From IMG/VR virus record IMGVR_UViG_3300028805_000045: a DNA stretch of 64,000 nucleotides; one strand, 5' to 3'. This stretch comes from a virus (Duplodnaviria; Heunggongvirae; Uroviricota; Caudoviricetes). The notes beneath the pieces are model-generated. The model was not told where the DNA came from. It did no database searches and saw only the letters and a list, made by a program, of their open reading frames with translations. Made by a program: the position numbers and the translations under genes. How positions within the stretch are numbered: position 1 is the stretch's first letter; the number at the start of each line of letters is the position of its first letter. Shown piece by piece: positions 465 to 53,234 of this stretch.

Positions 465-506
465 TTATTCTAATAAAAGTATATCATAAATTTGACAAAA
501 AGTCAA
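465..506 (-). promoter_or_regulatory. Promoter cassette copy (TTGACT-N17-TATACT)
   Basis: Motif match; drives the gene at 1..446. Confidence 0.5.
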
Positions 507-509
507 TAA

Positions 510-535
510 AAAAGACCCCATATTAAGGGGTCTGC
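510..535 (-). terminator. Rho-independent terminator
   Basis: Minus-strand hairpin AGACCCC-TTAATAT-GGGGTCT followed by T6. Confidence 0.6.
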
Positions 536-1530
536 ATTAAGTCCTTCATTTCATCTACGAATAATTCTACCAAATCAGTTTGTGAAGGAACGGCTTGACT
601 TAATTTGAAATCTTCAGTTCCAAATACCTTTTTAATAATATCTCGCATAATATTTAGCCGCTGATCTTTTTCTTCATCAGTATTAGCTTTTTCTAAATAT
701 GTCATCCAAATAGTCTTTGCTTCTTCCATAACTTCTTGGAATGGACGAGATTTTACTTGCGCGAACTCGGTATTGTCAGTTACTTGTGCTCCATCTTTTT
801 CTACTGCCATATCAATAGCTTCACCTATTGCATCAACTAATTCTTTATATCCAAATTTAATTTTAGGAGCTAAATATTGATAACGAGAACCAGCAAATAC
901 TGTGGGAGTAGAACGTGTATATAAATACCTTTCCGTTGTACCGTCGTTATTCATTTGAACTTGAAGATAACCAATAATATCTACGATACTATTAATAATT
1001 GTATAAGCATTATTAGGTAAATCAGGAGCTACTGCGGTTATCGAATTTCCATCTTCGTCCTTCATTTCAGTTGGCTTGTCTTTACTATGAGCAATAAATA
1101 AAATACCAAATCCTAGCAAAGTAATTTCACGCCAACATTCAGAAAATTCATTTTTTACCATGCCCCAACCTTGTCCCCAGGGAATGTCTCGTAAATTATC
1201 TACGCTTTCACGCTGACAAATATATTGTTCACATAGCTGCCAAGCAATTGAAGCGGTATCTACAACGATACTATCATACATTTCTTTTGCTTGTGGCTTT
1301 CTTAATTGGCTAAGTACTTTCTTGAAATCTGTCCATCGTAAAATTGGAACACCGCGTATACCAGCCAATGCGTTTGTACCTTGTTCAAAGTTAAGGAATA
1401 ATGCTCTGGGTAACTAAGAACCAAAAGTAGATTTTCCAGTTTTTGGCTATCCATAAATTAGTAAAAATTTTCCTTTTAAATCTCTTGAAATTTTTGAAGG
1501 TTCAAGAGAAAATATATCAATGTTCGCCAT
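523..1530 (-). CDS. Sak4/RecA-like AAA ATPase (phage recombination ATPase) with 2 in-frame TAG codons
   Basis: Start MANIDIFSLEP at 1530. One in-frame TAG interrupts the Walker A segment (LLIYG-TAG-PKTGKSTFGS-TAG-LPRALF). Joins ORF 523..1368. Stop is TAA. Confidence 0.7.
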
Positions 1531-1558
1531 ATTTTACACCTCCTGGAAGTTGAGAATA

Positions 1559-2470
1559 TTATTCCCAACTATATTTACCAGGAGTAGTTGCGGCAGGAGC
1601 AGAAGCAGAAGCAGTTTTATTAGTGCTATTCTTCGCATCAAGTTGTAGCTGTTCAATCTTTGCCTTACGAACATTAAATGCTTTCTTAATTTCAGTAGGA
1701 TCATAAGCAAAATCTTCTTCCTTGCCCTGATCATCACCAGTAGTAATAATTAGTTCACGCACCATACGAGTCGTATCTTCTGGAACATCTTCACCCCAAC
1801 TACTGGTCATTTGTGGCTTAGTTTCAACAGAAGTTACACGAATACGTCCTTTTACCGTAACTGTATCATGAATTTCCCAATTACGTTCGATATATTCTAC
1901 CTTATCAGCACCTTCTACGACGAATTCAAGTACGTCTAGGTTTCCACCATATTGGACTAAACCGCCCTTTACAATTAGACGTCCGGTTGGATCTCCGTCG
2001 CGATCTACTTCGGGATGCTTGTCCATAATAAAAATGTCAAGGGTGAAAGAAGCGACATCCGCGGTAGAACCCTTACCAACGAAAGAAGCACGAACCTGCC
2101 AACCATTAATAAGTTGTCCGCTCTTGGAAACAAAGTTGTTTTCACTTAATACTGCGCCACTAAAACGAACAGTGTCAGCTTCATCAAAGCCAACATTCTG
2201 AGCAGTCTTTAAAGCCTTTAAATCTTGAATACTTTTATAAGCAGGATTCTGAGTTCCTTTTGTAGTAAATTCAGTTGCGAACATACTAACCTGAACTTCG
2301 CTTACCTCTGGAACGGTACTGCCGCCATACATCTAAGTTACACGAACAGTAGCAGTTGCTCTTTCATATGGAGTGCCGCTAGTCTTAGTCTTTCCGGTGG
2401 CAAAAGTTGTGTCTAATAGTTTTCCAACAATATTTACTTTATTTGTAGCTTGTTCATTAATACTTTTCAT
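1559..2470 (-). CDS. Hypothetical protein, possible ssDNA-binding (OB-fold) partner of the Sak4 ATPase; 1 in-frame TAG
   Basis: ATG at 2470 (MKSINEQATNKV...) reads through the TAG at 2333-2335 into ORF 1559..2332. Sits downstream of a perfect TTGACA-N17-TATAAT promoter. Confidence 0.5.
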
Positions 2471-2481
2471 ATATATTCTTT

Positions 2482-2531
2482 CTCCTATATTTTTTTCTTT
2501 TATTATACTTTAATTTCTTTATTATGTCAAA
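2482..2531 (-). promoter_or_regulatory. Promoter cassette copy (TTGACA-N17-TATAAT, perfect sigma-70 consensus)
   Basis: Minus-strand TTGACATAATAAAGAAATTAAAGTATAAT. Confidence 0.6.
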
Positions 2532-2537
2532 TTATAA

Positions 2538-2572
2538 AAGGGCGATCCCATTTGAGGGACCGCCCTCGATAA
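2538..2572 (-). terminator. Rho-independent terminator
   Basis: Minus-strand hairpin AGGGCGGTCCC...GGGATCGCCCT followed by TTTT. Confidence 0.5.
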
Positions 2573-2576
2573 TTTA

Positions 2577-2936
2577 TTAGGCGTTTTCCTTTGCGGCCTT
2601 AGCAGCAGCACGTTCTGCGGCCTTACGAGCCTTTTCTGCTTCCTTAGCAGCAAGCTTTTCAGCAGCTTCAGCAACGGGATCATAAGCTAGTCCCTTCTCA
2701 GTTAGGGTATGATATAGAACCTTCTTAATCTGAGCCTTACGAGTTTCAGTCGCAGGAGTTACAGTTACTTCCTCGGTACGAGTTGTAATTGCATATTCAT
2801 TCTTAATTAGGCCATTTAAACTACCAGTAACAGCGGGAACAGAAATATTTAGCGCATCCGCGATTTCCTACTTAGAAAATTCCTTACCATAATTCTTTTT
2901 TAGATAATTTAAAACTAATTCACTATTGGGGGTCAT
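2577..2936 (-). CDS. Small HTH (winged-helix-like) DNA-binding protein with an Ala/Lys-rich histone-like C-terminal tail; 1 in-frame TAG
   Basis: Manual translation MTPNSELVLNYLKKNYGKEFSK-TAG-EIADALNISVPAVTGSLNGL...AAKAAKENA, ending in TAA. Missed by the ORF track because of the internal TAG. Confidence 0.5.
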
Positions 2937-3257
2937 AATAATCAATCTCCTTTTTCTTTTAAAAATATTTTATTTATATTAAAGTAGTGCGTTATATTTA
3001 TTAATTTTATTTATTAGTATTTTCTTTTCGCCCCACTTTATATACTTATTATACCAAAATTTTATTCAATTGTCAAATACTTATAATTTATTTTCTCTTA
3101 AAATGAGAACTCTGAGGAGAGATTTTCTTTTTCTCTCTTTCTGTAAATATTATATCATGAATTTTTATAAAAGTCAATTATTAGTTTCTTCAATTTTAAA
3201 TAAATTTTCAACTAATAATTTGGCTTCTTCGTCAGTTTTTGTTTCATCAATAATACG

Positions 3258-6217: not shown

Positions 6218-6262
6218 TTTTCTTATTTATTATATTATAACATAAATTTATGTAAAAGTCAA
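6218..6262 (-). promoter_or_regulatory. Promoter cassette copy
   Basis: TTGACT...TATAAT plus the ATATGTAAGAA-type leader. Confidence 0.5.
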
Positions 6263-7200
6263 TTAATTAACCATTTATCAGACATAATATCTTCTAAGCA
6301 TAATTTCTTTAATTGCGTATAAGGGATACGTTTTAATGGGATATTATGTTCTATTGCATAATTTGTTTTTATATCATCACATAATTTAGTATATTCAAAA
6401 TCATTTTTCCAACCAGGATTAAAATGCTGTTTCCCATCATATTCTAACAAAAATTCATTATTTATATAAAAATCATATCGTAAAACCCAATTTTTAGGAG
6501 ATTTACAATCTAAATATTTATGTTGAAATATAAAAGGAATATTGTTTTCATTTAAAATTTTTTTAATCAACTCTTCTCCTTTTGAAGAGGAAAAACAGCC
6601 ACATGAAATTGTGTCTCCTTGTAATAGACATTCAGAAGTTACTGTACATTTATTACCACAATCACATTGACAAAGCCATAAACGCTTACCATGTTTATTA
6701 GAACCAATATGCTCTAATGCAATTAATTTTCCAAATCGTTGGCCCGTTAAATCTTTTCCATTAATCATAGCTGCTTTTTCTTTTTGTAAACATCCACAAC
6801 TTTGTACATGCCCAGATTTTAATTGAAATGATGTAGCATATGCAATTTGTCCGCAATCACATAAACATTTCCATAGAATTTTTTTATCACTATTTCTACT
6901 TCCATCATCTTCTAATACAAGTAAACGATTAAATTTTTGTCCTTCTAAATGGGTATGATTATTCTTTTTTAATTGTGATAATTTATAACAACCACAAGAA
7001 ATTGTGTGTCCTTGACGAATAGATAATCCACTGACACTAAAAATTTTTCCACAATCACATTGACATTTCCAATATGCATGAGGAGCTGTAATGTGATGTA
7101 TTTTTTTATATTCTTTATCTTCTTCTATCACTGTTATATGGCTTTCTGGAACACCATGTTCTTTCATAACCCAACCAGTCATATCTATTTTTTTACCCAT
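6259..7200 (-). CDS. Multi-Zn-finger nuclease-like protein (homing-endonuclease-like, possible PD-(D/E)XK C-terminal domain)
   Basis: 313 aa with three CQCDCG...SCGC zinc-finger repeats. The C-terminal RYDFYI...LLEYDGKQH resembles Vsr/DUF559-type nuclease cores. Sits between the two topoisomerase subunit genes. Confidence 0.45.
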   Translation of the reverse strand: MGKKIDMTGWVMKEHGVPESHITVIEEDKEYKKIHHITAPHAYWKCQCDCGKIFSVSGLSIRQGHTISCGCYKLSQLKKNNHTHLEGQKFNRLLVLEDDGSRNSDKKILWKCLCDCGQIAYATSFQLKSGHVQSCGCLQKEKAAMINGKDLTGQRFGKLIALEHIGSNKHGKRLWLCQCDCGNKCTVTSECLLQGDTISCGCFSSSKGEELIKKILNENNIPFIFQHKYLDCKSPKNWVLRYDFYINNEFLLEYDGKQHFNPGWKNDFEYTKLCDDIKTNYAIEHNIPLKRIPYTQLKKLCLEDIMSDKWLIN

Positions 7201-9368: not shown

Positions 9369-9387
9369 TATATCAATCCTCCTTTTC

Positions 9388-9426
9388 TTTACATTTAATT
9401 ATAACATAAATTAAGAAAAAAGTCAA
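9388..9426 (-). promoter_or_regulatory. Promoter cassette copy upstream of the topoisomerase B gene
   Basis: TTGACT-N17-TATAAT. Confidence 0.55.
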
Positions 9427-12190: not shown

Positions 12191-12195
12191 TTTAC

Positions 12196-12238
12196 CTCTT
12201 TTTTCTTTTATTATATCATGAATTTTATAATTTGTCAA
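12196..12238 (-). promoter_or_regulatory. Promoter cassette copy
   Basis: TTGACA-N17-TATAAT plus AAAAGAAAAAAGAGG leader. Confidence 0.55.
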
Positions 12239-16279: not shown

Positions 16280-16289
16280 TTTATTCTCC

Positions 16290-16329
16290 TTTTTCTTTTA
16301 TTATATCATAAAATTTAAAAAAAGTCAAA
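16290..16329 (-). promoter_or_regulatory. Promoter cassette copy
   Basis: Motif match. Confidence 0.5.
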
Positions 16330-20950: not shown

Positions 20951-20961
20951 CTTAATCCTCC

Positions 20962-21004
20962 CTTTTCTTAATATAATTATATCATAAAAAAGAGAGGAAG
21001 TCAA
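20962..21004 (-). promoter_or_regulatory. Promoter cassette copy upstream of rnhA
   Basis: TTGACT-N17-TATAAT. Confidence 0.55.
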
Positions 21005-23197: not shown

Positions 23198-23207
23198 CAT
23201 TCCTTTC

Positions 23208-23244
23208 TTTTTTATTATTATATCATAATTTTTATAGAAAGTCA
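23208..23244 (-). promoter_or_regulatory. Promoter cassette copy upstream of the phosphatase gene
   Basis: Motif match. Confidence 0.5.
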
Positions 23245-23252
23245 AGGAATAA

Positions 23253-28687: not shown

Positions 28688-28699
28688 TATTATTTCCTC

Positions 28700-28738
28700 T
28701 TTATGAAATAATTATAGCATAATTTTAATTTTAAGTCA
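28700..28738 (-). promoter_or_regulatory. Promoter cassette copy
   Basis: TTGACT-N17-TATAAT. Confidence 0.55.
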
Positions 28739-28978
28739 ATTTTCTGAAGAAATAAACTTTATTATTTTAGAATTATAATATTTATAATTCCAATCTAAAG
28801 TATTAATAATTTGTTTTTCATTTAATTTAATTGGAATCCATTGTGCTGGTTTGCCACATTTTGGACATAAAATTTCTTTAATATAATATTGATTAGACTT
28901 CAATGAATTTATAACTCCATCCACAATCTTCGTCGTTCCATACAAAATATGCTCCTTTTGAATGATCGGCATGTTCAC
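28736..28978 (-). CDS. Hypothetical Zn-ribbon protein (overlaps the next ORF)
   Basis: 80-aa ORF with CPKCGK. Confidence 0.3.
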   Translation of the reverse strand: MNMPIIQKEHILYGTTKIVDGVINSLKSNQYYIKEILCPKCGKPAQWIPIKLNEKQIINTLDWNYKYYNSKIIKFISSEN

Positions 28979-29099
28979 AAATCATTAAATATCCATCATT
29001 AAATGAAGTTGTCCATTCTATTCTTTCAATCATATATACTTCATTTAATAGATAATCTTGCGCGGTATCTAGAAGCCAATCTTTATATTCGTTAGACAT
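28893..29099 (-). CDS. Hypothetical protein
   Basis: 68-aa ORF. Confidence 0.4.
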   Translation of the reverse strand: MSNEYKDWLLDTAQDYLLNEVYMIERIEWTTSFNDGYLMICEHADHSKGAYFVWNDEDCGWSYKFIEV

Positions 29100-29834: not shown

Positions 29835-29843
29835 ACTTACACC

Positions 29844-30197: not shown

Positions 30198-30206
30198 TAT
30201 CTCTCC

Positions 30207-31514: not shown

Positions 31515-31524
31515 TTTCCTTTCC

Positions 31525-31566
31525 CTTTTCTATAAATATTATATCATAATTTTTATAAAAAGACAA
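31525..31566 (-). promoter_or_regulatory. Promoter cassette copy (-35 variant TTGTCT)
   Basis: Motif match. Confidence 0.5.
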
Positions 31567-31584
31567 GTGATTAATTTTTTAAAA

Positions 31585-31800
31585 TTAATCACTTTCTAGT
31601 TTCCACAAATAAAATTCTTTAATTGACTTTAAAATTTCATCGGGATATTGATCAAAATTATTTGGAGAAGCAATATATATAATATTATCTTTTTTAAAAC
31701 TAGTCATAAAATATGGTTCAGCATTAATAGCTATAATATCTCTAAAATTTTCATAAATTTGATCTAATGTACGCGAACTATTTGCACATTCCCAACTCAT
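31585..31800 (-). CDS. Hypothetical protein
   Basis: 71-aa ORF. Confidence 0.4.
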   Translation of the reverse strand: MSWECANSSRTLDQIYENFRDIIAINAEPYFMTSFKKDNIIYIASPNNFDQYPDEILKSIKEFYLWKLESD

Positions 31801-33246: not shown

Positions 33247-33781
33247 CTTTTTTAAGAGGAGTTTTCCCGCCAGGTTTAATTGCTTTTAAAATATCTTGAT
33301 ATTCATTAACTAACGTGTCATTATAAAAAAGATTAATTTTATTTTCTGTAAATAATTTTAATAAAATACTTCCTGATTTATTAGGATCGCTGTTAAATTT
33401 TTCAATAAAATCTTCTGTTTGTTCGACACTTTCGATAGAATCTGTTTCTAAATCTGTTTGAGTATATTTGGCATAATCAGTATTTAATTGAACTTCAATC
33501 CAACGTAAATTTTTGATTGAATTATCACGTTTATTACTATTAATATGGTCGATATTATATTTTTCATTTCGTTTTCCGCCGAGCCAAGTATAAGCAACTA
33601 GTCGATGAACGAGCTGCGGGCCTTTATTAGTAAAAACTGTACAATAACCTTTTTTATCTATCCTAATATTTAGGAACTCTTTATTCTGAATAAGCCGTAC
33701 TCGTCCTTGTGTGCTAACCCAGACACCATATTCTTCGTTCTTACGCCAACGTTCGATAGAGAAATGAAAATTAGGAAACAT
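33158..33781 (-). CDS. HNH homing endonuclease
   Basis: HRLVAYTWLGG...IDHINSNKRDNSIKNLRW carries the HNH motif. Confidence 0.7.
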   Translation of the reverse strand: MFPNFHFSIERWRKNEEYGVWVSTQGRVRLIQNKEFLNIRIDKKGYCTVFTNKGPQLVHRLVAYTWLGGKRNEKYNIDHINSNKRDNSIKNLRWIEVQLNTDYAKYTQTDLETDSIESVEQTEDFIEKFNSDPNKSGSILLKLFTENKINLFYNDTLVNEYQDILKAIKPGGKTPLKKDVFCHIARAIRKNTPYGTFMWRFEKKEGI

Positions 33782-33799
33782 AATATCAATCCTTTCATT

Positions 33800-33843
33800 C
33801 TTTCTTACATATATATTATATCAAAAATTTTAAAAAAAATCAA
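33800..33843 (-). promoter_or_regulatory. Promoter cassette copy (-35 variant TTGATT) upstream of the HNH gene
   Basis: Motif match. Confidence 0.5.
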
Positions 33844-33851
33844 GGGTTAGA

Positions 33852-33876
33852 CTTTCATCTAACCCTATATTTTATA
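33852..33876 (-). terminator. Rho-independent terminator
   Basis: Minus-strand hairpin GGGTTAGATGAAAGTCTAACCC followed by a T-run. Confidence 0.5.
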
Positions 33877-33878
33877 AA

Positions 33879-35423: not shown

Positions 35424-35489
35424 ATCCTTTTATCTCCTTTTCATCTTAGTCGTTGTCACGACCGTAGGTTTTCTTCTTTATATATTTAT

Positions 35490-35537
35490 TATGCTATTTT
35501 ATATATTTATTATACTATAATTTTTATCTAAAGTCAA
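35490..35537 (-). promoter_or_regulatory. Promoter cassette copy (-10 region partly duplicated) upstream of the vWA gene
   Basis: Motif match. Confidence 0.5.
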
Positions 35538-35839
35538 ATATTATTTTCTACGGGTTCTGGATCTGGAATATCAGCAATTGCTCCGATAGATCTATACTCT
35601 AACGTTAATCCATCTGAGCGTAAAAGTATTACTGTCTGTAACTGTCTATCTTCGCGCTTATATAATGTTCCTAATGTAGTATAATATTCTCCATATGCGC
35701 GAGATAATGCGGTTGAAATGTTATTATTAAATAACTTACTATCAAATACTTTAGGATAACCGGATAAAGTACTATAATTTCCATTAGCATCTACAATTTT
35801 AGCTGATACTTCAAAAATTTCTCGTTTCATAATAAACAC
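35534..35839 (-). CDS. Hypothetical protein
   Basis: 101-aa ORF. Confidence 0.4.
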   Translation of the reverse strand: MFIMKREIFEVSAKIVDANGNYSTLSGYPKVFDSKLFNNNISTALSRAYGEYYTTLGTLYKREDRQLQTVILLRSDGLTLEYRSIGAIADIPDPEPVENNI

Positions 35840-35842
35840 CTC

Positions 35843-36049
35843 TTATATAGTTTTAAAACATAAACATTCAGTTTTTTCAATGTTTGTTTTACAAGTTTTA
35901 TCTTTTAATTTACATTTATAATATCCAGGTTCTTCAATAAATGGAGGATTGGGAATCCATTTACTATACGGACATTCGCTAGGTTTAATTACGTCAACAT
36001 ATTCTTTCATATTAATCTCCTTCAAATGCTGCGGCAAGGCGACCGCCAA
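35843..36049 (-). CDS. Hypothetical protein
   Basis: 68-aa ORF. Confidence 0.35.
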   Translation of the reverse strand: MAVALPQHLKEINMKEYVDVIKPSECPYSKWIPNPPFIEEPGYYKCKLKDKTCKTNIEKTECLCFKTI

Positions 36050-36578
36050 TTAAGTTTCCTGCGGCTATAATTAAAATTTTTAAAAGTGATATGGGGCCAT
36101 GACCGAGAGCCACAAAATAGAAGTAGTCAGCAATAGAGTGATTAAATCCTGCTAGAATAAATGCGGCTACGGCTAATGTGCTAATCCATAATGGAGTTAA
36201 CCTATATGTAGCGATTGTCATTAAAGCTCCACACATAATGCTATTAAATATTAAAGTATCAATTGGAATAGCATCTTTTATCATACCAATCTTTTGTGCG
36301 CCAACAAGTATATTTGGAGAAAAAAACATAACTAAGAGAAAAATAAAATTTACTCCAAGACAGTTATCAATAAAAATCCAAAAGATTTTCATTGGTTTAT
36401 ATGGTGAATTCTTTTTTAAAAAGAATTGAGTTTTTCCTGTATATAAGTCTAGTTGGAATAATCGTATAGCAAGCAAGCCTAATGAAAAACAAATGGCTCC
36501 AATTGTTTTATCTGGAATAGCAACATACATACAGCACCCGAGTCCAATTAGCATTCCAGCAAGGAATGGATTTTTCAT
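36012..36578 (-). CDS. Polytopic membrane protein (FNT-transporter-like segment)
   Basis: 188 aa with 5-6 TM segments and an NHSIADYFYF motif. Confidence 0.45.
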   Translation of the reverse strand: MKNPFLAGMLIGLGCCMYVAIPDKTIGAICFSLGLLAIRLFQLDLYTGKTQFFLKKNSPYKPMKIFWIFIDNCLGVNFIFLLVMFFSPNILVGAQKIGMIKDAIPIDTLIFNSIMCGALMTIATYRLTPLWISTLAVAAFILAGFNHSIADYFYFVALGHGPISLLKILIIAAGNLIGGRLAAAFEGD

Positions 36579-36961
36579 TCAGTTTCAAGCTCCTTTAAGG
36601 CGTTTAAATCATGCTGAAGATTTTGAATATAATGCTTTACTGAGAATACATTATAATCATCCTCATAATCACCGCCATCATGCCGAATAGCAATATACCA
36701 TCCAGGACCATCATAATGATAATAAGCATTTCGAAGCCATGTCTTTTGTTGAAGATATTTTAAATCATCCTCAGATTCTATTTTATAACAATATTCGTAA
36801 TCTTCTGTTGTTAGTAATTCAATATAACACTTTGGAATTTGTTTTTCTGGCATAAGTTCTACTTCATGCTTTTCTGCATCTCGTTTACTTGTAAATGTTT
36901 TTCCATCACTAGTAATATAAACTTTGTATTCTTGTGAACGAACTCGAATTTCCTCTTTCAT
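36575..36961 (-). CDS. Hypothetical protein
   Basis: 128-aa ORF. Confidence 0.45.
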   Translation of the reverse strand: MKEEIRVRSQEYKVYITSDGKTFTSKRDAEKHEVELMPEKQIPKCYIELLTTEDYEYCYKIESEDDLKYLQQKTWLRNAYYHYDGPGWYIAIRHDGGDYEDDYNVFSVKHYIQNLQHDLNALKELETE

Positions 36962-36962
36962 A

Positions 36963-37589
36963 TTATTCTCCTTTCATTGGATAGGTGTATAAATCTTCAA
37001 TTGGAATTTTTAACGATTGTAAATCAAACCAACGTTGACGTATTTCTCCAATAATTTCTTCAATGTTTACTGGTTTACAATCATGACTATCCATTCCTAC
37101 ATGATAACAGAATGGATTGTTAGGATATAAAAAGTTAGCTTGTTGATGAGTATGCCCATGTAAAGCGATTACATGTTGATTAAAATGCTTTTCATCATAA
37201 TTAGCTGTCAATGTTGGATAGTGAGAAAGATAACATGTAATTTTATTGTTATATTTAAACATAGTTGCCCAAGAAGCTTCTGGATTACTAATTAATGAAA
37301 CATTTTTACATTCTTTAGTAATTTCTTCTACTTTCGACCTTGAATCGTGGTTTCCTCGAATCCACCAAATAAAACCATTTAATTTTTTAATATATGCAAT
37401 TGCATCCGCAGTATCTGTCAAAGCCATATCACCAAGATGATAAACAATATCATCTGATTTTACTATACTATTCCATTTTTCTACAATTATTTCATTCATT
37501 TCTCTTACAGAAGAAAATCCGCGGGGACTCCACAAAAATTCTGGCTTATGAGAAAAATGTGTATCACTCGTTAGATAGATTTCACTCAT
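36963..37589 (-). CDS. Calcineurin-like metallophosphoesterase
   Basis: Carries DTHFSH...GDMALTD...GNHD...HGHTHQ motifs. Confidence 0.7.
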   Translation of the reverse strand: MSEIYLTSDTHFSHKPEFLWSPRGFSSVREMNEIIVEKWNSIVKSDDIVYHLGDMALTDTADAIAYIKKLNGFIWWIRGNHDSRSKVEEITKECKNVSLISNPEASWATMFKYNNKITCYLSHYPTLTANYDEKHFNQHVIALHGHTHQQANFLYPNNPFCYHVGMDSHDCKPVNIEEIIGEIRQRWFDLQSLKIPIEDLYTYPMKGE

Positions 37590-38065
37590 ATTTCCAATTC
37601 TCCATCAATAGTAACCATTCCAATTTCACGTTTGTCTTCGTGATTAGGAATAGTAAGCGAAGCGCGCATACGATGAATAACGTTTTCTGGAACTAACGCG
37701 CGGCCTTCACGATTTTTATTATGTTCAATGCAAGTCTCAGCAGAAGCCGTAAAAATTACATAAACAATATTATATTCAGTAAAATCAAGATCAATCGCTG
37801 CGGTTAGCTTTTTACGCGAAGCTGCATTAAGTTGGGTTGCATCAGCAAGTACGTGCTTACCTTCGCTAAGAGCCTGTGCAATTAATTTAGAATAGTGCCG
37901 AAATACTTCTTTTTCGTGAGAAAAATAATCTTCATCTGATTTAATAAACCGAAAACGAATTTCGTCACGAGAAATCCATTTTACAGAATCAGAAGTAAAT
38001 TGCTTCGCAAAGGTAGATTTGCCGCACCCAGGAGCACCGCAAAGAATATATAAAGTAGGCTTCAT
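37586..38065 (-). CDS. P-loop kinase (polynucleotide kinase-like)
   Basis: LYILCGAPGCGKSTFAKQF forms a Walker A. Overlaps the phosphoesterase gene by 4 nt. Confidence 0.6.
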   Translation of the reverse strand: MKPTLYILCGAPGCGKSTFAKQFTSDSVKWISRDEIRFRFIKSDEDYFSHEKEVFRHYSKLIAQALSEGKHVLADATQLNAASRKKLTAAIDLDFTEYNIVYVIFTASAETCIEHNKNREGRALVPENVIHRMRASLTIPNHEDKREIGMVTIDGELEI

Positions 38066-38075
38066 ACTTAATCTC

Positions 38076-38122
38076 CTTTTCTTTTATATAAATATTATAT
38101 AATAATTTATATAATAAGTCAA
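38076..38122 (-). promoter_or_regulatory. Promoter cassette copy upstream of the kinase gene
   Basis: Motif match. Confidence 0.5.
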
Positions 38123-40471: not shown

Positions 40472-40522
40472 TTTCTCTCTTTCTTACATATATATTATAC
40501 TATAAATTTTATTTATAGTCAA
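40472..40522 (-). promoter_or_regulatory. Promoter cassette copy driving an ORF-poor segment and the downstream tRNAs
   Basis: Full cassette including the CTTTCTTACATATATATTATAC leader. Confidence 0.5.
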
Positions 40523-41627: not shown

Positions 41628-41675
41628 CTCCTTTCTTACATATATATTATAACATAATTTTAAATTAAAGTCAAT
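41628..41675 (-). promoter_or_regulatory. Promoter cassette copy
   Basis: Motif match. Confidence 0.5.
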
Positions 41676-42627: not shown

Positions 42628-42703
42628 TGGTCGGAGTGGTGGGACTTGAACCCACGACTTCTTGATCCCAAATCAAGCACGCTACCAACTGCGCTACACC
42701 CCG
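42628..42703 (-). tRNA. tRNA-Pro (TGG)
   Basis: Acceptor CGGGGTG/CACTCCG, loop TTTGGGA, CCA encoded. Fused directly to the promoter leader. Confidence 0.8.
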
Positions 42704-42736
42704 TTCTTTACATATCTATTATACTATAATTTTAAC
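42702..42736 (-). promoter_or_regulatory. Promoter cassette copy fused directly to tRNA-Pro
   Basis: The leader ...ATATGTAAAGAA runs straight into the tRNA 5' end CGGGGTG. Confidence 0.5.
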
Positions 42737-42743
42737 TAAAAGT

Positions 42744-42814
42744 CAAATATTAAAGCGTCCAGTTGGAGTTGAACCAACTAACAAGGATTTTGCAGACCCT
42801 CTCCCGACCGACGA
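42744..42814 (-). tRNA. tRNA-Cys (GCA)
   Basis: Acceptor GCGTCCA/TGGACGC, loop CTGCAAA, T-loop TTCAACT. Confidence 0.75.
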
Positions 42815-42942
42815 GAATTGGACGCATATGCACAAGATAATAAGCAGTTGACAATCTGCATCTCTTATATTAGTGATAGCTGCCTGTTCTATCCTTTATT
42901 ATCTTATGCTCCGCTCTTTCTACACATGGCAGATGAGTTAAA

Positions 42943-43957: not shown

Positions 43958-44047
43958 TGGCGGGGGAGCTCGGATTTGAACCGAGAATGACGCCCTCAGA
44001 AGGCCCAGGTTTTAGAGACCTGCGTGTTGCCGTTACACCACTCCCCT
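43958..44047 (-). tRNA. Amber suppressor tRNA, anticodon CTA; type II scaffold (long variable arm), Ser-like
   Basis: Anticodon stem CAGGT/ACCTG with loop CTCTAAA (CTA = revcomp of plus 44013-44015). T-arm CTCGG-TTCAAAT-CCGAG. 3' end is ...CTCCCCCGCCA. The loop flanks GGTCT.CTAAAACC resemble this phage's tRNA-Ser(TGA) (GGTCTTGAAAACC) and the E. coli serU/supD Ser tRNA. Confidence 0.75.
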
Positions 44048-44498: not shown

Positions 44499-44744
44499 AT
44501 ACAAGAAGCGTTTTTACGCTTCTAGAAACTTTTTGCACGCTAGTGCATAAGATGTTATTGGGCCACGCGCGTCCCACCGCCCTGTTTTAAATTGATTATT
44601 GGTTATCATTCGATCTTTCGATCTCCCAAGTTCTCAATTTAATCATGCGCCAAAGCCTTGTCCGCCCTAGTTAATGTTGAGAATCGCCGTATATAGTACT
44701 GTTCGTGGTGGCGCCTTACATCCATATAACTATATATCCCACGC

Positions 44745-44787
44745 TCTCAACATATTTATTATACTATAATTTTAGAATAAAGTCAAA
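44745..44787 (-). promoter_or_regulatory. Promoter cassette copy
   Basis: Motif match. Confidence 0.5.
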
Positions 44788-45109: not shown

Positions 45110-46270
45110 ATTCTCCTTTAATTTATAAAATGCCAAGCGTTTCAGGCTCTTTTTAACGGTTTCTGTGTTTCCGTATTCACGCATAGTCCATTAGTACCAT
45201 GGGCTTTTGGACTCACCCTATGTAGCTGACAGTATTTCAACTTCCCCACTCATAAGGGATGGTCGATATTTTTATACCGCATCATCCACTCTGCGGTTTA
45301 AATTTTTGCGGGTGTAGATTTTCACTACACATGATAAATAAGTGAATTGGCCGAGTTCTTCTTATTTATCATAGTTACTTTTTGAAGCATTTGCTCTTAT
45401 CTTCTGGAGAAGCACCCTAACACTATGTGTCTACTGATACAATGCACTTTGCATTAACATTGCCACTGTATCCGCTACAGATTATTGAACAATCAAATGA
45501 TTGTTTTTTAATTCTGCTTGCGTTTATTCCACCACCGCAAATATTATTTATATAGCACAAAACCTAAGACACCAAAGATTAGAAAAACGCATCCGCATCA
45601 TCCACTCTGCGGTTTGACGAGAAATTCTTCCCATCTGCTAAAATGCCCCTTACTCTTATTTCTTTAGTATAAAAGACACTTTGTTTAACAATTACTGCGA
45701 CCTTCGCCGTACCTCATAATTCTTCTTGAATATTATGCTACTATTGAAAACCGGGCTGTGGCATAAGTAGCGACCTTATACCATCCGATTCCCGCGCCTA
45801 GCGCCGAGAATAGAGAGGATTGTTTACCTCTAAGTTTCACCCAAACCATTCAGCAGAAATTCATATCTGTATTTGTATTTCTATTTACATACAAATTTCT
45901 GTCTTGGGCTACTCCAACCGCAAACCTTACTTATATGCCATTTCTGGCTTTCATCGACATAGCGACTTGTGGTTTTTCCAGAGTTTGTATTGGCTACCAC
46001 CCCAATACCTTATCTGGATTTGGCCTGGCTCTTAACCTGGCTTCCTATTGTGTCGCCGTAAGGAATCGTGCATTTTCAAGCGAATTACTTGGCGCATACT
46101 CTTAACATTTGGAGTTTCTCCGCTATCGCTAACTATTACTAGTTTTGCGGCCGCACTTGCCTAGTATCCCGGGCAGTAGTGTATGGCTGTTATTCAAGTA
46201 TCCCAAGCTGCGTGGTTAGCGCATCTTCACTTGGTTCATAATTGCTAAACAAAATGTCTTTTACATTTCG
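45110..46270 (-). ncRNA. About 1.15 kb of GC-enriched, ORF-free sequence downstream of a promoter cassette: candidate long structured RNA(s) or an acquired element
   Basis: No ORF of at least 60 aa on the minus strand. A duplicated 23-mer CCGCATCATCCACTCTGCGGTTT occurs twice. Two hairpins covary: GTGTAG-ATTTTCA-CTACAC versus GTGTGG-ATTTTCA-CCACAC. Confidence 0.3.
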
Positions 46271-46274: not shown

Positions 46275-46319
46275 CCTTTCTTACATATTTATTATATCAT
46301 AGATTTTGAAGAAAGTCAA
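46275..46319 (-). promoter_or_regulatory. Promoter cassette copy driving the 1.15-kb ORF-free region
   Basis: Motif match. Confidence 0.5.
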
Positions 46320-47411: not shown

Positions 47412-47429
47412 AAAATCATTTCCTTTCTC

Positions 47430-47469
47430 TTGATATATTTATTATATCAAAAAATCTTAAAAAAGTCAA
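47430..47469 (-). promoter_or_regulatory. Promoter cassette copy
   Basis: Motif match. Confidence 0.5.
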
Positions 47470-47668: not shown

Positions 47669-47689
47669 ATACGAAAGGGATTTCTCCCT

Positions 47690-47730
47690 TTCAACATATT
47701 TATTATAGCATAATTTTAAATAAGAGTCAA
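47690..47730 (-). promoter_or_regulatory. Promoter cassette copy upstream of tRNA-Asn
   Basis: Motif match. Confidence 0.5.
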
Positions 47731-50524: not shown

Positions 50525-50573
50525 TCTCTCTTTCTTACATAATTATTATATCATAATTTTTGTTTTAAGTCAA
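50525..50573 (-). promoter_or_regulatory. Promoter cassette copy fused to tRNA-Met
   Basis: Minus-strand TTGACTTAAAACAAAAATTATGATATAATAATTATGTAAGAAAG. Confidence 0.55.
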
Positions 50574-50584
50574 ATAACTAGACT

Positions 50585-50625
50585 CGAAATTTCATGCTCT
50601 ACCTCTTGAGCTACTCACGCTATTG
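50585..50625 (-). pseudogene. 5' tRNA fragment (acceptor plus D-arm) abutting a promoter cassette
   Basis: GCGTGAG-TA-GCTC-AAGAGGTA-GAGC... is followed directly by the TTGACT -35 element. Confidence 0.35.
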
Positions 50626-50684
50626 CATAAGATGGGAGTTGAACCCACGACACTGAAAGTGTTGTTTGCTGTAAGAGTCTATAA

Positions 50685-51534: not shown

Positions 51535-51582
51535 CTTCTTTCTTACATATTTATTATATCATAATTTTTAAGAGAAGTCAAA
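51535..51582 (-). promoter_or_regulatory. Promoter cassette copy
   Basis: Motif match. Confidence 0.5.
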
Positions 51583-51761: not shown

Positions 51762-51808
51762 CCCCTTTCTTACATAAAAATTATAACATAATTTTATTTT
51801 TAAGTCAA
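51760..51808 (-). promoter_or_regulatory. Promoter cassette copy
   Basis: Motif match. Confidence 0.5.
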
Positions 51809-51812
51809 ATAA

Positions 51813-52010
51813 TTATTTTTTTGAAGTTCGATAATCTTCACGAGAATGAATGGTGTTTTGATATTTACATTCGGGACAATAAATATATTGTTCATAATCC
51901 CATTGACAATGATTATTCTGAATATCACTATCTTCAAAAGTAAAAACGCATTCACAATTCTTACAAGTCATTTGGTAAGGAGCATGCCCATGTTTAATAA
52001 CTTTAATCAT
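51813..52010 (-). CDS. Small Zn-ribbon protein
   Basis: 65 aa with CKNC...CPEC. Confidence 0.45.
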   Translation of the reverse strand: MIKVIKHGHAPYQMTCKNCECVFTFEDSDIQNNHCQWDYEQYIYCPECKYQNTIHSREDYRTSKK

Positions 52011-52153
52011 CGTAACATTCTACCTCGATTCCCATCTGTTCACAAAAAGTACTTTCAACTTCATACCAGGTATCACGAGAAATATACTCTTCTTCCATTT
52101 CTTCAATAGTACGATCACAAAGGAAATCATCAAGATAATCAGGCATTTTCTCA
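52010..52153 (-). CDS. Small acidic hypothetical protein
   Basis: Manual 47-aa ORF MPDYLDDFLCDRTIEEMEEEY... that overlaps the next gene by ATGA. Confidence 0.3.
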
Positions 52154-52159
52154 TCCTCC

Positions 52160-52203
52160 CTCTTTACATAAAAATTATATCATAATTTTAGTACAAAGTC
52201 AAG
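52160..52203 (-). promoter_or_regulatory. Promoter cassette copy
   Basis: Motif match. Confidence 0.5.
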
Positions 52204-52214
52204 AAAAAATCCAT

Positions 52215-52650
52215 ACTAAATTTCAAGTAAATCGACTATATAAGATTGGGTGTCTTTAATCTCTCACTATCAATTTAGTATGGATAGTGCAATTAATATT
52301 CGCGTAATATCAATTGCGGCCGCATATCTCACAGTTGCCGCGACTGGCAATAGTGCTTATATCGAAAGCAATCCGAGCGGATTCTCGCGCCGTATTCTCC
52401 GCGCCCACTTGGTTAAGGTAGTCAGCTCCTTCCAACTTTCATTCTCGAAAAAGTTGGCCTACGTCGTAGTATTACTCCGGATTAATTTACATGGCTACGA
52501 GCTCATGGCGGTTATTAACGCAAACCAAGCCCCGGCGCTTACTTTATTCTCCGCTCCCCTCGCTAGCAGGTTCGCGGGCGGGATGAAATAAGAAAACCCT
52601 TAGTTGTAAAAAGTCCTATCGGGTTGCGCATTGTAAAGAGGCGTGATAGG
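52215..52650 (-). ncRNA. GC-enriched ORF-free segment, candidate structured RNA
   Basis: Begins with the 12-bp inverted repeat CCATACTAAATT...AATTTAGTATGG. The plus-strand ORF 52250..52591 is judged spurious. Confidence 0.25.
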
Positions 52651-52656
52651 CTCTTA

Positions 52657-52733
52657 CTGGTACTCCCTCTGGGATTCTAACCCAGGACACCGGACTTAGA
52701 AGGACCGTGCTCTATACAACTGAGCTAAGGGAG
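52657..52733 (-). tRNA. tRNA-Arg (TCT)
   Basis: Acceptor GCTCCCT/AGGGAGT, loop CTTCTAA, T-arm CTGGG-TTAGAAT-CCCAG, CCA encoded. Confidence 0.7.
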
Positions 52734-52773
52734 CATATAAAAGGGTTGATTACGGCTCAACCCAAGCCATCAA

Positions 52774-53118
52774 TTAAAGAAAATTTTTGAAGAAAGGATC
52801 AAAAATATCAAATAAAGCGGGTACGTTCTTTACCCCATCGGTTGAAAAATGGAAAGTACCGTACTTTTTACAGAAAGCTTCAAGTTTTTCTCTATAAGCT
52901 GACTGTGCTTTATTAGCCGCTTCTAGCGCTGCGGTAACTTCTGCCGCCATAGCCTTACGCTCTGCGGCTTCCTTTTCTTTCTTTTCCTTTTCTTCTGCGG
53001 CTTTACGTTCTGCACGAATACGCTGACGATTTTCTTCTTCTTTTGCTTCGAATTCTGCTTGCTGGCAAGCTTCAACAGAATCAAATAGTTTGTTTAATTT
53101 TTCGCTATAAAACTTCAT
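52774..53118 (-). CDS. Lys/Glu-rich coiled-coil protein
   Basis: 114-aa ORF downstream of a promoter cassette. Confidence 0.45.
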   Translation of the reverse strand: MKFYSEKLNKLFDSVEACQQAEFEAKEEENRQRIRAERKAAEEKEKKEKEAAERKAMAAEVTAALEAANKAQSAYREKLEAFCKKYGTFHFSTDGVKNVPALFDIFDPFFKNFL

Positions 53119-53189
53119 ATAAGTTCCTCTCCTTATAATTTATGTAGTTCCTATCCTACATATTTAATATTATTAGAATGGGATTTTCC

Positions 53190-53234
53190 CTTTCTAACAA
53201 TATTATTATATCATAAAAAATTAAAAAAGTCAAA
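53190..53234 (-). promoter_or_regulatory. Promoter cassette copy
   Basis: Motif match. Confidence 0.5.

What the first reader, a model, noticed from the sequence alone, without database searches (positions are those of the whole stretch)
465..53234. A conserved promoter-plus-leader cassette of about 45 nt is repeated about 25 times and drives genes, tRNAs and non-coding islands
Minus-strand consensus: TTGACTT, 16-17 nt (usually containing AAAATTATGA), TATAAT, then AAATATGTAAGAAAGG leading into the SD and start codon. Several copies are perfect sigma-70 consensus promoters (for example TTGACA-N17-TATAAT at 2482-2531). The same cassette sits immediately upstream of tRNA-Pro, tRNA-Met and tRNA-Asn with the tRNA fused to the leader. 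It also sits in front of ORF-free GC-rich segments (44745, 46275), which implies that these are transcribed. A canonical -35/-10 architecture argues against a Bacteroidota host, which uses the TTTG / TAnnTTTG promoter type. It fits a low-GC Firmicutes-type or other sigma-A/sigma-70 host, unlike the crAss-like phages that share TAG recoding.
Basis: seen in the sequence. Interest (0 to 1): 0.65.

Follow-up and report, generated by a model that had tools for sequence, protein, structure and literature searches.

The report
Repeated host-type promoters in a rumen phage
The repeated 45-nt element is real: it is a set of 27 near-perfect Gram-positive-type housekeeping promoters, each with a very short purine-rich leader, that drive the non-structural genes, the tRNA island and a ROOL RNA of an uncultured TAG-recoded phage; this is a well-known kind of phage promoter, seen here in an unusually clean and clade-wide form.

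Summary
Confirmed. TTGAC-N18-TATAAT occurs 25 times, all on the minus (coding) strand, against 0.8 expected. A weight matrix finds 28 sites of at least 22 bits, none on the plus strand and none scoring 10-22 bits. Twenty-seven are intergenic and sit 14-27 nt (sometimes about 80 nt) upstream of a start codon or 8-27 nt upstream of a tRNA or ROOL 5' end. The 28th (60395) is a coding-sequence coincidence.

Every conserved sub-block matches a recognised sigma-70/sigma-A core-promoter element: TTGACT, T-tract, A-tract, TRTG extended -10, TATAAT, AT-rich discriminator, Y-R-Y start 7 nt downstream, and an 85% purine initial transcript that runs into the Shine-Dalgarno sequence.

Related rumen/gut phages show the same cassette. 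Around topoisomerase II there are 425 sites on the gene strand and 0 opposite in 1.25 Mb. Downstream of the tail gene there are 66 sites in 138 kb; in the TAG-recoded structural block upstream there are 4 in 157 kb.

One "ORF-free GC-rich segment" is a ROOL RNA (323 bits). The other begins with a conserved 5' hairpin ahead of tRNA-Arg.

The closest known analogue is the early/middle promoters of Herelleviridae. A Bacillota host is favoured and a Bacteroidota host disfavoured. This is a new member of a known kind. The unexpected detail is a module-specific split between G-start and A-start cassettes.

The parts
462..506 (-). Cassette (TTGACT-17-TATACT, A-start). Drives an ORF that starts at GTG about 455 and runs to the window edge. 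A terminator-like hairpin lies just upstream.
2486..2530 (-). Cassette (perfect TTGACA-17-TATAAT, A-start). Follows a strong terminator hairpin. Drives the 303-aa ORF 2470-1559 and then the Sak4-like gene 1530-523.
3032..3076 (-). Cassette (TTGACA), in tandem with 3177. Drives the 122-aa ORF 2945-2577 (+96).
3133..3177 (-). Cassette, 101 nt upstream of the 3076 copy. No ORF lies before the next promoter.
6218..6262 (-). Cassette. The TGA stop of the upstream HNH gene lies inside the -35. Drives a 63-aa ORF and then the topoisomerase II subunit 5959-3581.
9382..9426 (-). Cassette driving the topoisomerase II large subunit 9368-7497. An orthologous promoter is present in 51 of 76 related loci.
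12194..12238 (-). Cassette (TTGACA, A-start) driving a 93-aa ORF from 12187. A hairpin lies upstream.
16284..16328 (-). Cassette (A-start), preceded by a terminator hairpin. Drives a 58-aa ORF.
20960..21004 (-). Cassette driving RNase H (20950-20438).
23201..23245 (-). Cassette immediately after the TAG-rich 709-aa ORF 25382-23253. Drives the phosphatase-like gene that ends at 22292.
28695..28739 (-). Cassette. The upstream TGA stop lies inside the -35. Drives a 60-aa ORF and then RNA ligase 28487-27090.
31522..31566 (-). Cassette (TTGTCT-17-TATAAT) driving the 282-aa ORF 31514-30666.
33799..33843 (-). Cassette (TTGATT-17-TATAAT, G-start, full GTAAGAAAG leader) driving the HNH endonuclease 33781-33158.
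35493..35537 (-). Cassette. The upstream TGA stop lies inside the -35. Drives the Ro-like RNA-binding protein 35423-33879 (+79).
38078..38122 (-). Cassette after a 15-bp terminator hairpin. Drives polynucleotide kinase 38065-37586 and phosphoesterase 37589-36963.
40478..40522 (-). Cassette (G-start). The upstream TGA stop lies inside the -35. Only short ORFs lie downstream.
41630..41674 (-). Cassette (G-start, full leader) driving a 61-aa ORF and then tRNA-Ile(TAT).
42702..42746 (-). Cassette fused to tRNA-Pro(TGG) 42703-42628, with an 8-nt leader.
44742..44786 (-). Cassette driving a 253-nt ORF-free RNA. Downstream follow tRNA-Arg, tRNA-Tyr and the CTA suppressor tRNA.
44499..44751 (-). ORF-free structured leader RNA. 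Its 5' hairpin begins at the predicted +1 and is conserved in L001 (with a compensatory G-C to A-U change) and in L011 (93% identity).
43958..44047 (-). Amber-suppressor tRNA (anticodon CTA, 90 nt, long variable arm). It lies in the tRNA run downstream of the 44786 cassette.
   Evidence: in relative L077 a cassette sits 8 nt upstream of its CTA tRNA
46275..46319 (-). Cassette driving ROOL RNA. The predicted start at 46284 is 26 nt upstream of the ROOL 5' end.
45678..46258 (-). ROOL RNA (Rfam RF03087), full-length match.
   Evidence: 323.2 bits, gathering score 99.1
47425..47469 (-). Cassette (A-start). The upstream TGA stop lies inside the -35. Drives a 75-aa ORF and then tRNA-Ile and tRNA-Gly.
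47686..47730 (-). Cassette driving tRNA-Asn 47668-47595 through a 27-nt hairpin leader.
50529..50573 (-). Cassette driving tRNA-Met(CAT) 50520-50445, with an 18-nt leader.
51537..51581 (-). Cassette (G-start, full leader) driving a 75-aa ORF and then tRNA-Ala.
51764..51808 (-). Cassette (G-start, full leader) driving a 58-aa ORF.
52158..52202 (-). Cassette (G-start) driving the 113-aa ORF 52154-51813.
53189..53233 (-). First cassette after the structural block. The upstream TGA stop lies inside the -35. Has a hairpin leader and drives the 114-aa ORF 53118-52774. A promoter at the equivalent position is conserved in most of the 16 relatives examined.
53901..63979 (-). TAG-recoded structural block (tail protein, virion structural protein). 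It lacks cassettes. The hexamer match at 60395-60367 is a coding coincidence.

Best explanation
The cassettes are strong housekeeping-sigma (sigma-A/sigma-70) promoters read by the host RNA polymerase. Each is fused to a minimal 5' leader. Together they form about 27 short, co-oriented transcription units that express the phage's non-structural programme: replication and nucleotide-metabolism genes, an RNA-repair set, about 33 tRNAs including the amber suppressor, and ROOL RNA.

Each conserved block is a recognised core-promoter element. In order they are an AT-rich -35-proximal flank, TTGACT, a T-tract, an A-tract (AAAATT), a TRTG extended -10, TATAAT, an AT-rich discriminator, and a Y-R-Y start element with the purine 7 nt after the -10. 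The 'leader' is the purine-rich initial transcribed region. In coding units it merges directly into the Shine-Dalgarno sequence. In RNA units it is replaced or followed by a 5' hairpin, or by the mature tRNA 8-27 nt downstream, presumably trimmed by RNase P.

The TAG-recoded structural genes carry no such promoters. They must therefore be transcribed by another route and can only be translated once the suppressor tRNA, which is under cassette control, has accumulated.

Shown: the sequence architecture, strand and position statistics, and clade-wide positional conservation. Inferred: recognition by host sigma-A, the exact start sites, and timing.
For: Statistics: 25 exact and 28 PWM sites, all on the minus strand, 0 on the plus strand, with 0.8 expected. 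A generic sigma-70 scanner scores all 13 cassettes in the region it scanned (36-55.9 kb) at 11 of 12 hexamer positions, and these are the only 11/12 matches it finds there.

Architecture: the spacer is 17 nt in all 28 sites; TRTG is present in 16, TG in 21 and Y-R-Y at +7 in 18; the initial transcript is 85% purine against 54% for the strand. These match published features of Firmicutes promoters: TRTG, a start 7 bp after the -10, the YRY start element, an AT-rich discriminator, an AG-rich initial transcribed region and a four-region spacer (PMC12641261).

Placement: 27 of 28 sites are intergenic, and in 6 the upstream gene's TGA stop lies inside TTGAC. Start codons lie 14-27 nt (a few about 80-96 nt) after the predicted start, and tRNA or ROOL 5' ends lie 8-27 nt after it.

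Conservation: there are 425 sites on the gene strand and 0 opposite in 1.245 Mb of 80 related loci. An orthologous promoter sits upstream of topoisomerase II in 51 of 76 loci, down to 53% protein identity. ROOL is preceded by the same cassette in L001 and L011. There are 66 sites in 138 kb downstream of the tail gene against 4 in 157 kb of the structural block.

Gene content: the driven genes are topoisomerase II, Sak4, RNase H, PNK, RNA ligase, a Ro-like protein and similar; the cassette-free genes are tail and virion proteins with 4-15 in-frame TAG codons.

Experimental precedent: Herelleviridae early/middle promoters are TTGACW-17-TRTGN-TATANT and are read by host RNA polymerase. Their tRNAs and GOLLD/ROOL-like long RNAs are transcribed from the same region (PMC10383478).
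Against: There are no transcript 5'-end data, so the start sites and promoter activity are predictions. The host is unknown and uncultured, and no close relative exists among 50,697 deposited phage records. Some genes with 1-3 TAG codons (Sak4-like, PhoH-like) lie downstream of cassettes, so 'cassette = unrecoded early gene' is a tendency and not a rule. The leader GTAAGAAAGG is kept in front of ROOL and tRNA-Met, where no ribosome binding is needed. Promoter function alone does not fully explain that. Only 10 kb of the structural block lies in the window, so its own promoter was not identified.
Confidence: 0.85

Rival explanations
1. The sites are promoters, but they are read by a phage-encoded sigma factor or RNA polymerase whose specificity mimics the housekeeping consensus. 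They are not read by unmodified host holoenzyme.
For: The motif is more uniform than typical host promoters: there is a gap with no sites between 10 and 22 bits. It is shared by a whole phage clade. Most of the genome lies outside the window, so such a factor cannot be excluded.
Against: Both hexamers, the spacing, TRTG and the start element are exactly the host housekeeping type. From general knowledge, known phage sigma factors (SPO1 gp28, gp33/34) recognise clearly different motifs. No sigma, anti-sigma or RNA polymerase family was found among the 40 ORFs scanned against PHROGs. The same extended string occurs on long (300-460 kb) Clostridia MAG contigs.
Confidence: 0.06
2. The cassette is primarily a mobile or recombinogenic regulatory repeat, like the promoter-early-stem-loop (PeSL) cassettes of T4-type phages. 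In that case its copy number would reflect spread by duplication and module shuffling rather than independent selection for promoter strength.
For: The entire intergenic region is often just the cassette. The leader is retained in front of non-coding targets. About 8 copies follow a terminator-like hairpin. Cassette copies cross-hit each other in BLAST within and between genomes.
Against: Upstream hairpins are not enriched over random positions (Mann-Whitney p = 0.21). The non-contact spacer positions 8-12 differ freely between copies, which argues against recent duplication. Orthologous copies stay in place across 53-91% protein identity.
Confidence: 0.08
3. On top of promoter function, the conserved region from the discriminator into the leader (ATAT-G-TAAGAAAGG) is a separate regulatory signal. 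It could be an operator for a phage or host regulator, or an RNA 5'-end element that stabilises or marks transcripts, for example a Shine-Dalgarno-like 5' stabiliser of the Bacillus type.
For: The exact leader is kept where translation is irrelevant: ROOL in three phages and tRNA-Met. The G-start leader class is confined to the tRNA/ncRNA island in the window (12 of 15 against 0 of 12, p = 3.7e-5) and predominates in the corresponding loci of relatives (25 of 30, against 10% G around topoisomerase II). Non-coding units start with 5' hairpins.
Against: An AG-rich initial transcribed region and an AT-rich discriminator are generic for Firmicutes promoters (PMC12641261). No candidate regulator was identified. 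The leader varies in length and sequence in the A-start class.
Confidence: 0.2
4. The matches are a chance or compositional effect of an AT-rich genome.
For: The genome is 31% G+C, and loose sigma-70 matches (9-10 of 12 positions) are no commoner than in shuffles: 83 against 67 +/- 8.
Against: There are 25 exact matches against 0.8 expected, and none of 100 shuffles exceeds 3. The strand asymmetry is total. The sites are intergenic and conserved by position. Only the 60395 site is explained by coincidence.
Confidence: 0.01

Closest known systems
Early/middle promoters of Herelleviridae (Staphylococcus phage K/Kayvirus; SPO1-like phages of Bacillota)
   Same: The consensus is -35 TTGACW, a 17-bp spacer, a TRTGN extension and -10 TATANT, read by host RNA polymerase. 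These promoters control most genes other than late structural ones. tRNA genes and GOLLD/ROOL-like long RNAs are transcribed from the same region (PMC10383478). The window shows all of these sequence features.
   Different: There is no detectable sequence relationship: the best hit among deposited phages is 30-33% protein identity. The Herelleviridae late motif TGTTATATTA is not enriched here (22 against 20.9 expected). This phage recodes TAG in its structural genes and carries the suppressor tRNA in the cassette-driven tRNA island.
Sigma-A promoters of Bacillus subtilis and other Firmicutes with the -16 region TRTGn (Voskuil & Chambliss 1998/2002; Helmann 1995, cited in PMC3113569; cross-phylum analysis in PMC12641261)
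   Same: The hexamers, the 17-nt spacer, TRTG, the AT-rich discriminator, a purine start 7 nt downstream in a YRY context, the AG-rich initial transcript and the four-region spacer.
   Different: The phage copies are far closer to consensus and to each other than a host promoter population: 25 of 28 have TTGAC and 27 of 28 have TATAAT exactly. They are packed so tightly that the upstream stop codon can lie inside the -35.
PeSL mobile early-promoter/stem-loop cassettes of T4-type phages
   Same: A repeated early promoter of 50-70 nt that fills intergenic gaps between small genes in one orientation.
   Different: A stem-loop partner is present at only about 8 of 28 copies and is not enriched. 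The copies are conserved by position and not shuffled.
Bacteroidota sigma-ABfr promoters (TTTG at -33, TAnnTTTG at -7), used by the hosts of crAss-like phages
   Same: Both phage groups recode TAG in late genes (10.1101/2021.08.26.457843).
   Different: The Bacteroidota motif is not enriched in the window (1 match against 4.2 expected). Shine-Dalgarno sequences are used at 79% of starts.

Membership tests
Sigma-70/sigma-A housekeeping promoter (Firmicutes type) | A -35 hexamer close to TTGACA and a -10 hexamer close to TATAAT | tested here: met
   25 of 28 sites have TTGAC[T/A] exactly and 27 of 28 have TATAAT exactly.
Sigma-70/sigma-A housekeeping promoter (Firmicutes type) | Hexamer spacing of 17 +/- 1 bp | tested here: met
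   All 28 sites have 17 bp, although 15-19 was allowed in the search.
Sigma-70/sigma-A housekeeping promoter (Firmicutes type) | Extended -10 / -16 region (TGn or TRTGn) | tested here: met
   In the window TRTG is present in 16 of 28 and TG in 21 of 28. In 376 unique sites from relatives the figures are 52% and 68%.
Sigma-70/sigma-A housekeeping promoter (Firmicutes type) | Located upstream of, and co-oriented with, genes | tested here: met
   27 of 28 sites are intergenic, all are on the coding strand, and start codons or RNA 5' ends lie 8-96 nt after the predicted start.
Sigma-70/sigma-A housekeeping promoter (Firmicutes type) | Primary transcripts start about 7 nt downstream of the -10 | not testable with these tools
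   Only the sequence context could be checked: a purine at +7 in 27 of 28 sites and YRY in 18 of 28. No RNA data were available.
Sigma-70/sigma-A housekeeping promoter (Firmicutes type) | Recognition by the host holoenzyme | not testable with these tools
   This needs in vitro transcription or infection experiments. The host is unknown.
Bacteroidota-type promoter (TTTG / TAnnTTTG) | Enrichment of TTTG-N(17-23)-TAnnTTTG upstream of genes | tested here: not met
   1 match against 4.23 expected.
PeSL-like mobile promoter/stem-loop cassette | A stem-loop physically coupled to each promoter copy | tested here: not met
   Upstream folding energies do not differ from random positions (p = 0.21). About 8 of 28 copies have a clear hairpin.
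Herelleviridae late promoter | The TGTTATATTA -10-like motif upstream of structural genes | tested here: not met
   22 matches with at most 1 mismatch against 20.9 expected, and none placed upstream of the structural genes.
ROOL RNA (Rfam RF03087), the target of the 46319 cassette | A covariance-model score above the curated gathering threshold over the full model | tested here: met
   323.2 bits against a threshold of 99.1, covering model positions 1-574. Relatives score 318 and 323 bits.

The most novel reading that the evidence does not exclude
The cassettes fall into two classes, conserved across the clade and specific to genome modules. They differ in the predicted initiating nucleotide and the initial transcript. 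G-start 'ATAT-G-TAAGAAAGG' promoters serve the tRNA, suppressor-tRNA and ROOL island. A-start promoters serve the replication and nucleotide-metabolism genes. If the split is functional, there are two possible mechanisms. One is sensing of the initiating NTP, as at Firmicutes rRNA/tRNA promoters, which start with GTP. The other is a factor that reads the discriminator or leader. Either way, the phage would couple stable-RNA output, and with it the timing of the UAG code switch that licenses late-protein synthesis, to host nucleotide or growth state, separately from its replication genes.
Probability: 0.2. Interest if true: 0.6.

Novelty: new member of a known kind. Interest (0 to 1): 0.33.

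Why it matters
It gives a ready-made, high-confidence transcription map for an uncultured clade of roughly 160-190 kb rumen/gut phages with TAG recoding. The map specifies which genes host polymerase can read on entry (replication, RNA repair, tRNAs, suppressor tRNA, ROOL) and which it cannot (the recoded structural block). It predicts the primary 5' end of a phage ROOL RNA, an RNA whose structure is known but whose function is not. It provides an annotation-free marker of host type (Bacillota-like, not Bacteroidota) and of the coding strand for metagenomic phage contigs. It also shows that the amber suppressor tRNA lies in the cassette-driven tRNA island, and that in one relative (L077) a cassette sits 8 nt upstream of the suppressor itself. 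That is the wiring expected if recoding times late gene expression.

Tried and rejected
(1) Chance or AT-richness: rejected.
(2) Close cultured relatives to borrow annotation from: none. Megablast of 25 kb found nothing, and the best tblastn hit was 33% identity.
(3) An obligatory terminator/stem-loop partner (PeSL-like): not enriched.
(4) A Herelleviridae-type late promoter motif: not enriched.
(5) A de novo late promoter in the structural block: the intergenic gaps are too few and too short, with only a 67-nt gap carrying a terminator before 61647.
(6) Copies lacking a -35 (a PWM of the -10 half only): only five weak extras, the best placed at 10693.
(7) The 60395 site as an internal promoter: it encodes the conserved peptide LLDxDIKxLYN, and the same codons recur in relatives L333, L334 and L373, so its conservation is explained by the protein.
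(8) The Bacteroidota promoter motif: not enriched.
(9) Host assignment from MAG titles. It is therefore only indicative.
(10) An Rfam E-value search of the tRNA island for the 44.5-44.75 kb and 45.1-45.7 kb ORF-free stretches: no family matched.
(11) Three ORFs listed as starting with TTG at 23245, 21004 and 12238 are artefacts. The TTG is the first three bases of the -35.

Full report
**Observation.** The pattern TTGAC-N(16-20)-TATAAT occurs 25 times in the 64-kb window. Every copy has a 17-nt hexamer spacer and every copy is on the minus strand. Dinucleotide-preserving shuffles give a mean of 0.8 and never more than 3. A weight matrix covering positions -8 to +29 relative to the first T of the -35 finds 28 minus-strand sites scoring 22.8-41 bits. 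It finds no plus-strand site above 10 bits and nothing between 10 and 22 bits, so the family is discrete. The three added sites differ by one hexamer base each: 33843, 31566 and 506. A generic sigma-70 scanner run on 36-55.9 kb scores all 13 cassettes there at 11 of 12 hexamer positions, and nothing else reaches that score. All long ORFs are also on the minus strand.

**Anatomy.** Column statistics give the consensus a-T-t-A-a-T-A-T | TTGACTTt | 4-5 free positions | aAAAaTT | ATG n | TATAAT | A-a-a-T-a-T | R | T-A-A-r-r-A-r-G-G. Each block corresponds to a described core-promoter element:
- the -35 hexamer;
- a thymine tract just after the -35, a low-information stretch, and a second A/T tract;
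- the G-containing extended -10 (TRTG in 16 of 28 sites, TG in 21 of 28);
- the -10 hexamer;
- an AT-rich discriminator;
- a pyrimidine-purine-pyrimidine start element with the purine exactly 7 nt after the -10 (18 of 28 sites);
- an initial transcribed region that is 85% purine, against 54% for the strand as a whole.

A 2025 cross-phylum study reports the same set for Firmicutes promoters: TRTG, a start centred 7 bp after the -10, the YRY start element, AT- or AG-rich discriminators in Terrabacteria, AG-rich initial transcripts in Firmicutes, and a four-region spacer whose composition tunes strength. It notes Bacteroides as the exception (PMC12641261). The 'promoter-plus-leader cassette' is therefore a complete, near-ideal housekeeping promoter, and not a promoter plus a separate element of unknown kind.

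**Placement.** Twenty-seven of the 28 sites are intergenic. In six of them the TGA stop of the upstream gene is the TGA inside TTGAC, and in several more the stop lies within 3-7 nt of the -35. The cassette is therefore often the whole intergenic region. Taking the purine 7 nt after the -10 as +1, start codons with Shine-Dalgarno sequences follow after 14-27 nt in most units and after about 80-96 nt in three. RNA targets are closer still: tRNA-Pro at +8, tRNA-Met(CAT) at +18, tRNA-Asn at +27 and ROOL at +26. About eight copies follow a terminator-like hairpin, but hairpins are not enriched overall (p = 0.21).

**The 'ORF-free GC-rich segments'.** The segment after the 46319 cassette is a full-length ROOL RNA (RF03087, 323 bits, gathering score 99). 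The segment after the 44786 cassette is a 253-nt structured leader (z = -3.2). Its first hairpin starts at the predicted +1. It is conserved in relative L001 with a compensatory G-C to A-U change, and in L011 at 93% identity. It precedes tRNA-Arg, tRNA-Tyr and the CTA suppressor tRNA. Other non-coding units likewise begin with 5' hairpins.

**What is driven and what is not.** The window shows real TAG recoding. ORFs between 63979 and 53901, and ORF 25382-23253, carry 4-15 in-frame TAG codons and become 410-754 aa long only if TAG is read as sense. Those that could be named are a tail protein and a virion structural protein. Cassette-driven genes are both topoisomerase II subunits, a Sak4-like annealing protein, PhoH, RNase H, a dNMP kinase, polynucleotide kinase, a phosphoesterase, RNA ligase, a nucleotidyltransferase, a Ro-like RNA-binding protein, HNH endonucleases and many small ORFs. 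They also include about 33 tRNAs. The 10-kb structural block contains only the 60395 match. That site lies inside a 687-aa ORF, lacks TRTG and the leader, and spells L-L-D-N-D-I-K-L-L-Y-N. The same peptide and codons recur in relatives L333, L334 and L373, so it is a coding coincidence.

**Relatives.** No deposited phage is close. IMG/VR, however, holds a large clade, mostly from rumen metagenomes, with contigs up to 189 kb.
- In 80 loci around topoisomerase II (53-91% protein identity; 1.245 Mb) the window's matrix finds 425 sites on the gene strand and none on the other strand.
- An orthologous promoter sits 52-75 nt before the topoisomerase start in 51 of 76 loci.
- In 16 loci around the tail gene there are 4 sites in 157 kb on the structural side (three of them the coding coincidence). 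On the far side there are 66 sites in 138 kb, beginning at a conserved position equivalent to 53233.
- ROOL in L001 and L011 is preceded by the same cassette and the leader GTAAGAAAGGrAAAC.
- In L077 a cassette sits 8 nt before the CTA suppressor tRNA.
- The extended string TTGACTT-N6-AAAATTATGnTATAAT occurs in more than 118 viral stretches, where less than one is expected by my rough estimate. Neighbouring promoters that were not part of that search pattern share the architecture.

**Mechanism.** The best-supported reading is that host RNA polymerase with its housekeeping sigma initiates at about 27 strong promoters. These express the non-structural programme and the stable RNAs from many short units. 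The structural genes need another route for transcription, and need the suppressor tRNA for translation. This matches the proposal that recoding delays late protein synthesis (10.1101/2021.08.26.457843; that paper does not treat promoters). It also matches the experimentally mapped programme of Herelleviridae, whose early/middle promoters are TTGACW-17-TRTGN-TATANT and whose tRNAs and GOLLD/ROOL-like RNAs are transcribed alongside them (PMC10383478). Recognition by host sigma-A, the start sites and the timing are inferences.

**Host.** Four lines of evidence favour a Bacillota-type host over Bacteroidota.
- Promoter type: the Bacteroidota motif is not enriched.
- Shine-Dalgarno use: 45 of 57 starts against 8% at random positions. 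That Bacteroidota rarely use Shine-Dalgarno sequences is from general knowledge.
- The families present: ROOL and skipping-rope RNAs, described from rumen and Firmicutes-associated data (PMC5737381).
- A scan of 185,579 species genomes: by my manual tally of record titles, about 85 of the 120 returned stretches are Bacillota, mainly Ruminococcus, Oscillospiraceae and other Clostridia, and none are Bacteroidales.

**An unexpected detail.** The predicted +1 base is G in 12 of 15 cassettes between 33.8 and 53.2 kb (the tRNA/ncRNA island). It is never G in the 12 cassettes below 32 kb (Fisher p = 3.7e-5). Relatives repeat this: 25 of 30 are G in tRNA-island loci, against 10% G and 75% A around topoisomerase II. 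In B. subtilis, rRNA promoters start with GTP and respond to its concentration (PMC3113569). However, the position -5 thymine noted in that work is an adenine here, and consensus promoters tend to be insensitive to the initiating NTP. I therefore rate a functional split at about 0.2.

**Verdict.** The element is a new member of a well-known kind: strong host-type early/middle phage promoters of Gram-positive architecture. Its value lies in the clean transcription map it gives for an uncultured recoded phage clade, and in defining the promoter of a phage ROOL RNA.

Noticed in passing
window 45678-46258 (-): A full-length ROOL RNA (323 bits) sits inside a phage tRNA island, with its own consensus promoter and a 26-nt predicted leader. 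The same arrangement is seen in L001 (5403-5987) and L011 (3148-3722).
   Followed up: yes
window 42836-42903 (-) and 52614-52650 (-): A skipping-rope RNA (53.8 bits) lies between tRNA-Trp and tRNA-Cys. An abiF-motif RNA (44.2 bits) lies just after tRNA-Arg(TCT). Both score above their Rfam gathering thresholds.
   Followed up: no
window 50568-50668 (-) and 33879-35423 (-): There is a weak Y RNA-like (YrlA) match: 35 bits, below the gathering score of 69, E = 1.3e-4. The phage also encodes a Ro-like (phrog_850) protein. The element is 87% conserved in L048 and L057. This may be a phage Ro/Y-RNA pair.
   Followed up: partly
window 43958-44047 (-): The amber-suppressor tRNA (CTA) is 90 nt long, with a long variable arm and an apparent G discriminator. 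That is Ser-like architecture, not Gln-like. TAG may therefore not encode Gln here. This was not tested against protein alignments.
   Followed up: partly
window 45130-45677 (-): A 548-nt ORF-free stretch between ROOL and the next gene folds better than shuffles (z = -3.0). It contains two exact copies of CCGCAGAGTGGATGATGCGG, 316 nt apart. It is absent from the syntenic relative L001 and matches no Rfam family.
   Followed up: partly
window 27090-38065 (-): An RNA-repair gene set lies next to the tRNA island: polynucleotide kinase, phosphoesterase, RNA ligase, a nucleotidyltransferase and a Ro-like protein. It looks like a tRNA-repair toolkit against host anticodon nucleases.
   Followed up: partly
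window 53233, 47469, 40522, 35537, 28739, 6262 (-35 starts): The upstream gene's TGA stop codon is embedded in the TTGAC of the -35 hexamer, so gene end and promoter overlap by 4 nt.
   Followed up: yes
window 23245, 21004, 12238: Mechanical ORF calls start at the TTG of the -35 hexamer. These N-terminal extensions are artefacts. The real starts are the ATG codons after the Shine-Dalgarno sequence.
   Followed up: yes
window 6259-7200 (-) and 33158-33781 (-): An HNH/homing-endonuclease gene sits between the two topoisomerase II subunit genes. A second lies after the Ro-like gene and is driven by its own cassette.
   Followed up: no
window 60367-60395 (-): A perfect TTGACA-17-TATAAT lies inside the virion structural gene. 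It is generated by the codons for LLDNDIKLLYN, a motif conserved in relatives L333, L334 and L373.
   Followed up: yes
L314 (URLJ01000001.1), L237/L278 (JAGCPW010000095.1), L298, L299, L203: Several 130-185 kb contigs filed in bacterial MAGs (Mollicutes, Eubacterium, Acutalibacteraceae, Ruminococcus) look like binned phage genomes. L237/L278 and L298 carry tRNA arrays, and L203, L299 and L237/L278 carry multiple cassette-type promoters. L314 is homologous to this window (28 tblastx hits).
   Followed up: partly
L011 1871-2055; L079 3557-3701; L006 189-254: Relatives' tRNA islands also hold a group I intron (58 bits), a cow-rumen-3 RNA (115 bits) and a cow-rumen-4 RNA (68 bits).
   Followed up: no
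window 1530-523, 17601-16357, 18214-17579 (-): Some non-structural genes (Sak4-like, PhoH-like, ClpP-like protease) carry 2-3 in-frame TAG codons, so recoding is not strictly confined to the structural block.
   Followed up: partly
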